Assembly: GCA_963719515.1 (NCBI GenBank)
Contig: CAVRCJ010000005.1
Location: 96,001 to 160,000 of the forward strand
Direction of reading: 5' to 3'
Origin: an uncultured cyanobacterium
GTDB lineage: Bacteria > Cyanobacteriota > Cyanobacteriia > CAKZMO01
DNA length: 64,000 nucleotides
Shown here: positions 9,553-9,734 of the stretch, piece after piece
Layout: the number at the start of each line of letters is the position of its first letter
How positions within the stretch are numbered: the first letter of the stretch is position 1
Notes under the pieces: generated by a model
Seen by the model: the letters and a program-made list of their open reading frames with translations, nothing else
Told to the model about the DNA's origin: nothing
Database searches by the model: none
Position numbers and translations under genes: made by a program

Positions 9553-9734
9553 AGGAGCGGTAGACCAACGTCCTCTAGTTCGTGATGGTCTCCATCATAG
9601 TTCGACCGTAAGCACGGCTCACCGCTCCTATCCATTCTCTGAGAACTCGAACAAAGTGCCTACGGCAGGGCAAAGCCCAACGCCAGGTTCCTTCATAGAG
9701 ACCGTATCGCGCAAGACTGAGTGCAGAGCATGGA
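9553..9734 (+). ncRNA. putative IS110 bridge RNA
   Basis: Two long stems (9553-9561/9621-9629 and 9631-9641/9724-9734) each enclose an internal loop with CT on the left and AAG on the right. Loop 1 matches the target site. Confidence 0.7.

What the first reader, a model, noticed from the sequence alone, without database searches (positions are those of the whole stretch)
9553..9734. Bridge-RNA-like fold whose first loop spells the CRISPR repeat target
Seen: stem 1 (AGGAGCGGT/ACCGCTCCT) encloses an internal loop and a TGATGG/CCATCA hairpin. The left loop segment GTCCTCT (9570-9576) matches the target left arm plus core, (A/G)TCCCCT. The right segment CCGTAAG (9606-9612) is the reverse complement of CTTGCGG. 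Every difference is a G-U or G-T wobble. Stem 2 (9631-9641/9724-9734) has a parallel layout: ACAAAGTGCCT against donor ACATAATCGCT (7/11, weak) and GCAAG pairing with donor CTTGT. Inference: loop 1 binds the target, with predicted specificity RTCCYCTTRCGG, and loop 2 binds the donor.
Basis: partly seen in the sequence, partly recalled or inferred. Interest (0 to 1): 0.88.

Follow-up and report, generated by a model that had tools for sequence, protein, structure and literature searches.

The report
Bridge-RNA transposon targeting CRISPR repeats
This is the guide RNA of an IS110 jumping gene whose target loop spells the middle of a CRISPR repeat, and its close cyanobacterial relatives keep that guide and also sit in CRISPR repeats, so an RNA-guided parasite appears to use the host's RNA-guided immune memory as its landing site.

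Summary
Confirmed, with one correction. Window 9553-9734 is the bridge RNA of an IS621-type IS110 element (9539-11993) that splits the leader-distal repeat of a type III-A CRISPR array at a CT core. In 44 homologous RNAs the two-loop fold is kept by compensatory changes. Loop 1 covaries with the insertion sites: right guide 185/240 matches versus 73 permuted, left guide 178/273 versus 125. Relatives with the same right guide sit in different CRISPR repeats in at least seven other genomes, always antisense to the array and mostly with no repeats beyond them; 42 relatives with other guides do not adjoin arrays. This copy is probably dead, since a second IS interrupts its recombinase. The mechanism is known. 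I found no paper on bridge-RNA targeting of CRISPR repeats; the closest are protein-guided Tn7-like array-targeting elements (PMC11837452) and an unexplained IS1000/repeat overlap in Thermus (PMC6352166). Earlier scan notes show bridge RNAs aimed at other repeats, none at CRISPR. Nothing was tested at the bench.

The parts
9526..9538 (+). Left half of the split CRISPR repeat (left target arm; CT core at 9537-9538)
   Evidence: (family D3)
9539..9552 (+). IS110 left end: right donor arm and -10-like hexamer (9541-9546) that meets the -35 box only when the element's ends are joined in a circle
   Evidence: circle promoter model from PMC11208160
9553..9629 (+). Bridge RNA target-binding loop (stem 1, internal loop, inner hairpin 9582-9598)
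9570..9576 (+). Left target guide (5 nt plus core)
   Evidence: covariation; T9574 is C in related copies
9606..9613 (+). Right target guide (9606-9612) and handshake base C9613
9631..9734 (+). Bridge RNA donor-binding loop (stem 2); left donor guide ends at 9679-9684, right donor guide 9711-9715
9654..9678 (+). About 25-nt double-hairpin insertion that splits the left donor guide (also in L089, L136, L103; edges approximate)
9768..11802 (+). IS110 recombinase gene (DEDD_Tnp_IS110 + Transposase_20; D16/E60/D102/D105/S240), interrupted after codon 268
10571..11624 (+). Nested DDE insertion sequence (DDE_Tnp_4 + HTH_Tnp_4; terminal inverted repeats; 3-bp target duplication), fused in frame to the recombinase N-terminus as a 597-aa ORF
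   Evidence: (I1)
11803..11993 (+). IS110 right end (about 190 nt): -35-like box 11973-11978, left donor arm 11985-11991, CT core 11992-11993
11994..12016 (+). Right half of the split CRISPR repeat (right target arm)
   Evidence: (D2)
12052..13476 (-). CRISPR array, 20 intact 36-nt repeats; leader to the right, so inferred to be transcribed toward and against the element
13477..13700 (-). Putative CRISPR leader (motif shared with right flanks of L152, L154, L156, L163, L203)
21799..24174 (-). Type III-A cas10/csm1 of the neighbouring cas cluster (context)

Best explanation
The region is the bridge RNA of an IS621-type IS110 element from a cyanobacterial lineage whose target loop is set to the hairpin centre of type III-like CRISPR repeats (5 nt + CT + 5 nt). 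Shown from sequence: the element's ends, the shared CT core, the split repeat, the conserved two-loop RNA, guide-target covariation, handshake bases, catalytic residues, and recurrence in CRISPR repeats across genomes. Inferred from IS621: excision joins the ends into a sigma-70-like promoter (17-nt spacing) that makes the RNA; the recombinase binds it; loop 1 pairs with both strands of the repeat and loop 2 with the circle junction; strand exchange at CT inserts the element without duplication. The guide fixes the orientation antisense to the array. Surviving copies lie mostly at the leader-distal end, most likely because there they cost at most one spacer, so arrays act as an abundant, renewable and fairly safe landing site. 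This copy is probably immobile on its own: its recombinase is interrupted and the genome holds no intact copy.
For: Structure. Covariation: (right 185/240 vs permuted mean 73, max 105 of 10,000; 24 distinct guides 113/144 vs 42; left 178/273 vs 125; 29 distinct guides 128/203 vs 93). Handshake: C after the right target guide in 43 of 44, facing donor G; after the right donor guide G in 35 of 44, and T in exactly the 3 elements whose target has A there, as described for IS621 (PMC11208158). Protein: Pfam; IS621 8wt6 E 2.3e-33. CRISPR junctions seen on one contig with an array: window, G007, G185, G436, G032 (three junctions), G441 (two), G529. G496's site equals that genome's array repeat; G015's lone site resembles its array repeats. 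G441 was a forward test: tree and guide predicted CRISPR, and both right ends then found lay in arrays. None of the 42 aligned RNAs with other right guides adjoins an array. A decayed right end caps another array in this genome (C10 near 417,450). Sediment contigs of one study show related copies with another repeat on the right, another left flank, and an uninterrupted gene.
Against: No expression, binding or transposition data. The guide alone is not CRISPR-specific: 10 non-CRISPR sites match with wobbles only, and 321 with one mismatch against 71 CRISPR sites. Monophyly of the CRISPR-targeting members is unresolved (support 40/21); the supported 14-row clade also holds 5 elements at non-CRISPR sites. 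Of 11 RNAs with the CRISPR-type guide, 4 have an array on the same contig, 4 only half-repeats, 1 a lone repeat-like site, and 2 are undetermined (G425; G441 flanks in gaps). G185's left flank is not repeat-like, and G166's repeat was not found elsewhere in its assembly. Nine matching repeats on C6 are unoccupied. A G529 right end lies in a repeat with C after the core, against a strict +1 rule. Permutation tests do not remove relatedness. This copy's donor guide is split, and its donor-loop handshake base is A, not G.
Confidence: 0.82

Rival explanations
1. Bridge RNA, but opportunistic: the guide is aimed at generic CCCCT hairpin repeats of cyanobacteria, and CRISPR repeats are hit only because they are the most numerous matches. 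There is no specialisation on arrays.
For: Sister elements (L087, L019, L115, L117, L135) share the CCCCT left arm and sit at non-CRISPR sites, four of them hairpin-like. Half of the wobble-matching sites in the genome are non-CRISPR. Monophyly is unresolved.
Against: The right guide is conserved as one class across elements 60-71% identical in protein and across three families. None of the junctions read for this class lies clearly at a recurring non-CRISPR repeat. The sisters have different right guides matching their own sites.
Confidence: 0.1
2. Array-damaging element: it inserts anywhere in an array and truncates or reshuffles it. The leader-distal position is the scar of later deletion or recombination between copies, not of harmless landing. 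This is compatible with the bridge-RNA mechanism and rivals only the safe-site part.
For: In G436 the element is internal with different repeat types on its two sides. Right ends without a recombinase gene nearby cap arrays in G032:C36 and G000:C10. Left and right flanks do not always form one repeat type (G185; G032). G029 and one contig in run X3 show only a half-repeat before the leader. The cas genes beside this array are in pieces.
Against: In the window the split repeat is a divergent variant, as terminal repeats of other arrays in this genome are, and it alone of 21 has the T that fits the guide. G032:C5 keeps one repeat and spacer beyond the element. None of 63 spacers matches the element. 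The broken cas frames may be assembly errors.
Confidence: 0.3
3. Host-retained element: the right end or the RNA is kept because it caps, insulates or helps mobilise the array.
For: Right ends persist at array ends after loss of the gene. CRISPR-type members have long right ends, about 190-300 nt, against 8-170 nt in most others.
Against: The C10 remnant is decayed, most arrays in this genome lack the element, and long right ends also occur in L135, L110 and L088.
Confidence: 0.05
4. The fold and the matches are chance features of an IS end.
For: Each guide is only 7 nt, and 3 of 12 positions are wobbles.
Confidence: 0.01

Closest known systems
IS621 bridge recombinase and bridge RNA (PMC11208160: passages and section 6 read; PMC11208158: passages read; PDB 8wt6)
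   Same: DEDD plus serine recombinase, CT core, RNA in the left end upstream of the gene, two internal loops with left and right guides, handshake bases, circle-junction promoter layout.
   Different: The target is a CRISPR repeat (IS621's REP target is recalled, not read here). No separate 5' stem-loop is seen before loop 1. The covarying span is about 5+2+5 nt. The donor guide is split by a double hairpin in this copy, and a subclade has an inner stem about 90 nt longer.
CRISPR-array-targeting Tn7-like transposons of cyanobacteria (PMC11837452: abstract start, passages and section 12 read)
   Same: Cyanobacterial, minimal elements that prefer CRISPR arrays, in one orientation, often near the last repeat; proposed to be harmless to the system.
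   Different: Those use a TnsD-type protein and insert in spacers. This one uses an RNA guide and splits the repeat itself. That paper does not mention IS110 (0 occurrences).
IS1000A/B of Thermus thermophilus (IS110 family; PMC6352166: passages read)
   Same: The recorded element's terminal 32 bp are identical to the host CRISPR repeat, which would fit an IS110 sitting in a repeat.
   Different: The authors read it as recruitment of IS sequence by CRISPR; no guide RNA or targeting was proposed. I did not examine the Thermus sequences, so it is a lead only.
ISPpu10 (bioRxiv 10.64898/2026.03.19.712850: abstract and passages read)
   Same: IS110 element whose bridge RNA targets a repeated sequence with a stem-loop that adds specificity, a possible model for choosing repeats over bare sequence matches.
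   Different: The target is an intergenic repeat in Pseudomonas, not a CRISPR repeat; a structural gate is untested here.

Membership tests
IS110 group with bridge RNA (IS621 type) | DEDD RuvC-like domain plus Tnp20 domain with D/E/D/D and S | tested here: met
   PF01548 E 7.5e-23, PF02371 E 6e-12; D16, E60, D102, D105, S240 align to IS621's catalytic residues
IS110 group with bridge RNA (IS621 type) | No terminal inverted repeats; short core shared by both junctions | tested here: met
   CT at 9537-38 and 11992-93; same end motifs in homologs; no terminal inverted repeat among the 25 longest of 40 pairs shown
IS110 group with bridge RNA (IS621 type) | Non-coding RNA upstream of the gene with two internal loops | tested here: met
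   predicted structure only; no separate 5' stem-loop seen
IS110 group with bridge RNA (IS621 type) | Target loop covaries with target DNA | tested here: met
IS110 group with bridge RNA (IS621 type) | Donor loop complementary to donor junction | tested here: inconclusive
   Family: ATCG identical in 36 of 36, right guide fits, but the donor is nearly invariant so covariation is barely measurable (2 elements at one position); this copy's left guide is split
IS110 group with bridge RNA (IS621 type) | Handshake bases pairing with the non-cognate DNA | tested here: met
   (family pattern; this copy has the target-loop C but A in the donor loop)
IS110 group with bridge RNA (IS621 type) | Promoter formed across the circle junction | tested here: met
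   -35 and -10 consensus-like boxes 17 nt apart after joining ends; sequence only, activity not shown
IS110 group with bridge RNA (IS621 type) | RNA expressed, bound by the recombinase, and reprogrammable | not testable with these tools
   needs bench work
IS110 group with bridge RNA (IS621 type) | Intact recombinase (autonomous element) | tested here: not met
   interrupted by a nested IS; single copy in genome; affects activity of this copy, not family membership
IS1111 group (RNA downstream, subterminal inverted repeats; features recalled) | Guide RNA 3' of the recombinase gene | tested here: not met
   RNA lies 5' of the gene in all 44 aligned elements
Tn7-like CRISPR-array-targeting transposons | Tns genes with TnsD-type protein target selection; insertion in spacers | tested here: not met
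   element holds only the IS110 gene plus a nested IS, and splits a repeat

The most novel reading that the evidence does not exclude
A cyanobacterial IS110 lineage has programmed its bridge RNA against the Cas6 hairpin of CRISPR repeats and lives as a dedicated RNA-guided parasite of arrays. By inserting, and by recombination between copies or half-sites, it caps, truncates and splices arrays of different repeat types. The same strategy may have arisen independently elsewhere (Thermus IS1000).
Probability: 0.45. Interest if true: 0.82.

Novelty: new variant of a known kind. Interest (0 to 1): 0.66.

Why it matters
Bridge-RNA recombination is known, but the natural targets I found described are other repeats and mobile-element ends. 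A lineage that holds a guide for CRISPR repeats over deep divergence would be an RNA-guided counterpart of the protein-guided Tn7 array-targeters, in the same hosts. It offers a direct test of how mobile elements shape immune memory (harmless landing or array truncation). The family is also a readable set of natural guide-target pairs, with two structural variants (split donor guide, long inner stem) that show how much change a bridge RNA tolerates, and it could provide a tool for inserting DNA into arrays in cyanobacteria.

Tried and rejected
Rfam: no family over the RNA; only sub-threshold CRISPR-repeat hits. Two working left guides in the long variant (L084, L085, L112, L113, L114, L116): rejected; in 6 of 6 the fold with the first copy free is more stable and the second copy pairs in a long inner stem. 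The 25-nt donor-loop insert as a dispersed mobile repeat (idea recalled from cyanobacterial small dispersed repeats): not supported, 1 exact copy and 2 weak ones in the genome; the paper search found nothing usable. A second live copy in the genome: the C10 similarity is a decayed right end only. Spacers against the element: 0 of 63. Strict need for T after the core: 40 of 40, but one counter-example. Sequencing runs: no RNA holder listed; no contig spanned an empty site or circle junction. Collection scans by peptide words gave mostly distant relatives whose right ends my motif did not find; plasmids gave one 50% relative, not examined. A DNA search with the RNA found 0 of 90 genomes in one order and 1 of 4 in another; a junction pattern found 2 of 401. 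The first tree was the quick version; the careful one on 23 rows did not resolve monophyly. No covariance model was built and no structure or complex was predicted.

Full report
Observation. The 201-nt region folds at -65.1 kcal/mol, z -3.49, with 0 of 200 shuffles as stable. Rfam has no family over it.

Anatomy. Downstream lies an ORF with DEDD_Tnp_IS110 and Transposase_20 domains, fused to DDE_Tnp_4 domains. The fusion arises because a 1,054-bp DDE element with inverted repeats and a 3-bp duplication (10571-11624) interrupts the IS110 gene after codon 268; the gene resumes and ends at 11802. The N-terminal part matches IS621 (8wt6, E 2.3e-33) and ISCro4, with D16, E60, D102, D105 and S240 opposite the IS621 catalytic residues (residues from PMC11208158, passages). 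The element runs from a CT at 9537-38 to a CT at 11992-93. Outside these lie the two halves of one CRISPR repeat (9526-9538 and 11994-12016), followed by 20 intact repeats, a putative leader and a type III-A cas cluster. The element therefore splits the leader-distal repeat within its hairpin and points against the inferred direction of the array. Joining the ends places -35 and -10 boxes 17 nt apart, the layout described for IS110 circles (PMC11208160, passage). There is one copy in the genome and no other protein hit at E 1e-5.

Conserved structure. Homologs came from 17 family-level, 401 class-level and 173 further genomes. Of 63 RNAs with a recognisable left end in these sets (one named cyanobacterial contig included; the other loci were left out), 44 were aligned; long variants, near-duplicates and one with an internal duplication were dropped. 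The consensus fold has two stems, each with an open internal loop and an inner hairpin. Of 25 pairs, 17 show compensatory change; 94% of cells pair, against 80% in shuffles (0 of 500) and 33-40% in slid controls.

Loop 1 and the target. Guides were read at alignment-anchored positions and compared with the flanks. Right guide: 185 of 240 non-core positions match in 40 elements (4 lacked a right flank), against a permuted mean of 73 and a maximum of 105 in 10,000. Positions +1 to +5 match in 82-100% and +6 at chance. With 24 distinct guides: 113 of 144 against 42. Left guide: 178 of 273 in 39 elements (5 had short flanks) against 125, the signal lying in the five positions next to the core; with 29 distinct guides 128 of 203 against 93. 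Relatedness is only partly controlled, but guides change with their sites in many separate branches. In the window the match is 9 Watson-Crick pairs and 3 wobbles. Wobbles are not favoured in the family (12 vs 25 other mismatches left, 5 vs 16 right), and near-identical copies have C at 9574 (G032; runs X1 and X3), so one wobble is a recent change.

Loop 2. In 36 elements with an unsplit loop and a known donor, the left donor guide matches ATCG in all. Handshake bases behave as in IS621: C after the right target guide in 43 of 44, facing donor G; after the right donor guide G in 35 of 44, and T in the three elements whose target has A at that place. The window has A there. Donor covariation itself is barely measurable because the donor hardly varies.

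CRISPR targeting as a lineage trait. Junctions inside CRISPR repeats with an array on the same contig were found in G007, G185, G436, G032 (three junctions), G441 (two) and G529. G496's site is that genome's array repeat. G015 has a lone site resembling its array repeats. G029 has a remnant before a half-repeat and leader. G166's site is repeat-like but was not found elsewhere in its assembly. The repeats differ outside the 12-nt centre. Eleven RNAs carry the same class of right guide: 4 with an array on the contig, 4 with half-repeats only, 1 lone site, 2 undetermined. None of the 42 aligned RNAs with other right guides adjoins an array. G441 served as a forward test: tree position and guide predicted CRISPR, and both right ends then found lay in arrays, though its RNA and right ends are separated by assembly gaps. 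A decayed right end plus half-repeat caps another array of this genome (C10). Contigs from one sediment study show related copies with an uninterrupted gene, a different left flank, and a right end entering another repeat type next to a leader. In the tree, nine CRISPR-type proteins fall in a 14-row clade (99/99) with five non-CRISPR sisters; their monophyly is neither shown nor rejected (40/21), while six long-stem members form a clade (100/99).

Specificity and position. With all wobbles there are 9 CRISPR and 10 other sites; with one mismatch, 71 and 321. The guide therefore enriches for repeats but does not define them alone; the repeat hairpin may add specificity, as reported for ISPpu10 (abstract), which is untested here. 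The split repeat is the only one of 21 with T after the core, a position matched in 40 of 40 elements, but a G529 right end lies in a C-type repeat. Orientation is the same in all cases. Of 8 CRISPR-type loci with a visible left flank, only 2 have further repeats there (G436 six, G032:C5 one). Either terminal insertions survive because they are cheap, or internal ones lose the distal part. G436, with different repeat types on the two sides, and right ends without a gene favour some rearrangement; half-match recombination (abstract of 10.64898/2026.08.31.748434) offers a route.

Mechanism, shown and inferred. Shown: ends, core, fold conservation, guide-target covariation, handshake pattern, catalytic residues, recurrence in repeats. 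Inferred from IS621: circle, promoter, RNA expression, pairing and strand exchange. Inferred from position: low cost to immunity. This copy is probably unable to move unaided.

Comparison with what is known. It meets the sequence-testable features of IS621-type bridge systems; the donor-loop test is inconclusive for this copy. Seven searches aimed at IS110 or insertion sequences with CRISPR repeats or arrays, or at bridge RNAs, plus one on IS1000, found no description of bridge-RNA targeting of CRISPR repeats. The library lacks most subscription papers, and supplements were not read, so a listing in the Durrant or Perry target tables cannot be excluded. Term searches in PMC11208160, 10.1101/2025.05.14.653916, 10.64898/2026.10.21.760802 and PMC10359306 (passages only) showed no such case. 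The closest concept is the cyanobacterial Tn7-like family that targets arrays by protein and inserts in spacers (PMC11837452). The closest hint is Thermus IS1000A/B, whose recorded end equals a CRISPR repeat, read differently by its authors (PMC6352166). PMC10883916 and the Thermus phage preprint (passages) were not relevant. Earlier scan notes list bridge RNAs aimed at other repeats; none held all my search words, and none matched this sequence.

Verdict. A real bridge RNA, correctly read by the first stage except for the left donor guide. Known mechanism, apparently undescribed target class, supported at lineage level: a new variant of a known kind, interest 0.66.

Noticed in passing
L084, L085, L112, L113, L114, L116, L123 (left ends): CRISPR-type relatives with a target loop about 90 nt longer: a second copy of the stem arm and left guide is folded into a long inner stem.
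   Followed up: partly
window 9654-9678; L089, L136, L103: The same kind of 25-nt double hairpin splits the left donor guide in separate branches; the window's and L089/L136's inserts are very alike although the proteins are 53-57% identical and their sisters lack it.
   Followed up: partly
L005, L011, L149, L150 (left ends): Bridge RNAs with two complete target-loop-like stem-loops in tandem before the donor loop.
   Followed up: no
window 9768-11561: The nested DDE element fuses in frame to the IS110 N-terminus, giving a 597-aa hybrid ORF that annotation would misread as one protein.
   Followed up: yes
G000:C10 about 417,400-417,630 (minus strand): Decayed right end of a related element plus decayed half-repeat at the far end of another CRISPR array.
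   Followed up: partly
L158 (G436:C122): Element inside an array, with different repeat 3' halves on its two sides, as if two arrays were spliced.
   Followed up: partly
window 13947-21300: cas1, csm3 and csm4 appear as short or split ORFs while cas10 is long; decay or assembly frameshifts not distinguished.
   Followed up: no
window 28627-32621: A SAVED-domain protein, a second CRISPR array (about 30,090-30,850) and cas6 lie beyond the type III-A cluster.
   Followed up: no
L159, L199, L200 left flanks: Purine/pyrimidine-skewed units of about 140 nt ending in a repeat-like half site precede the element in two genomes.
   Followed up: no
L115 left end: The left end and start of the RNA are tandemly repeated several times.
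   Followed up: no
window 3006-4181: IS605-type TnpB (Cas12f1-like) gene.
   Followed up: no
L128, L170-L174 (G467): A distant relative with 14 listed matches in one genome; the six copies read share one guide and the same left target arm, a clean natural test set.
   Followed up: partly
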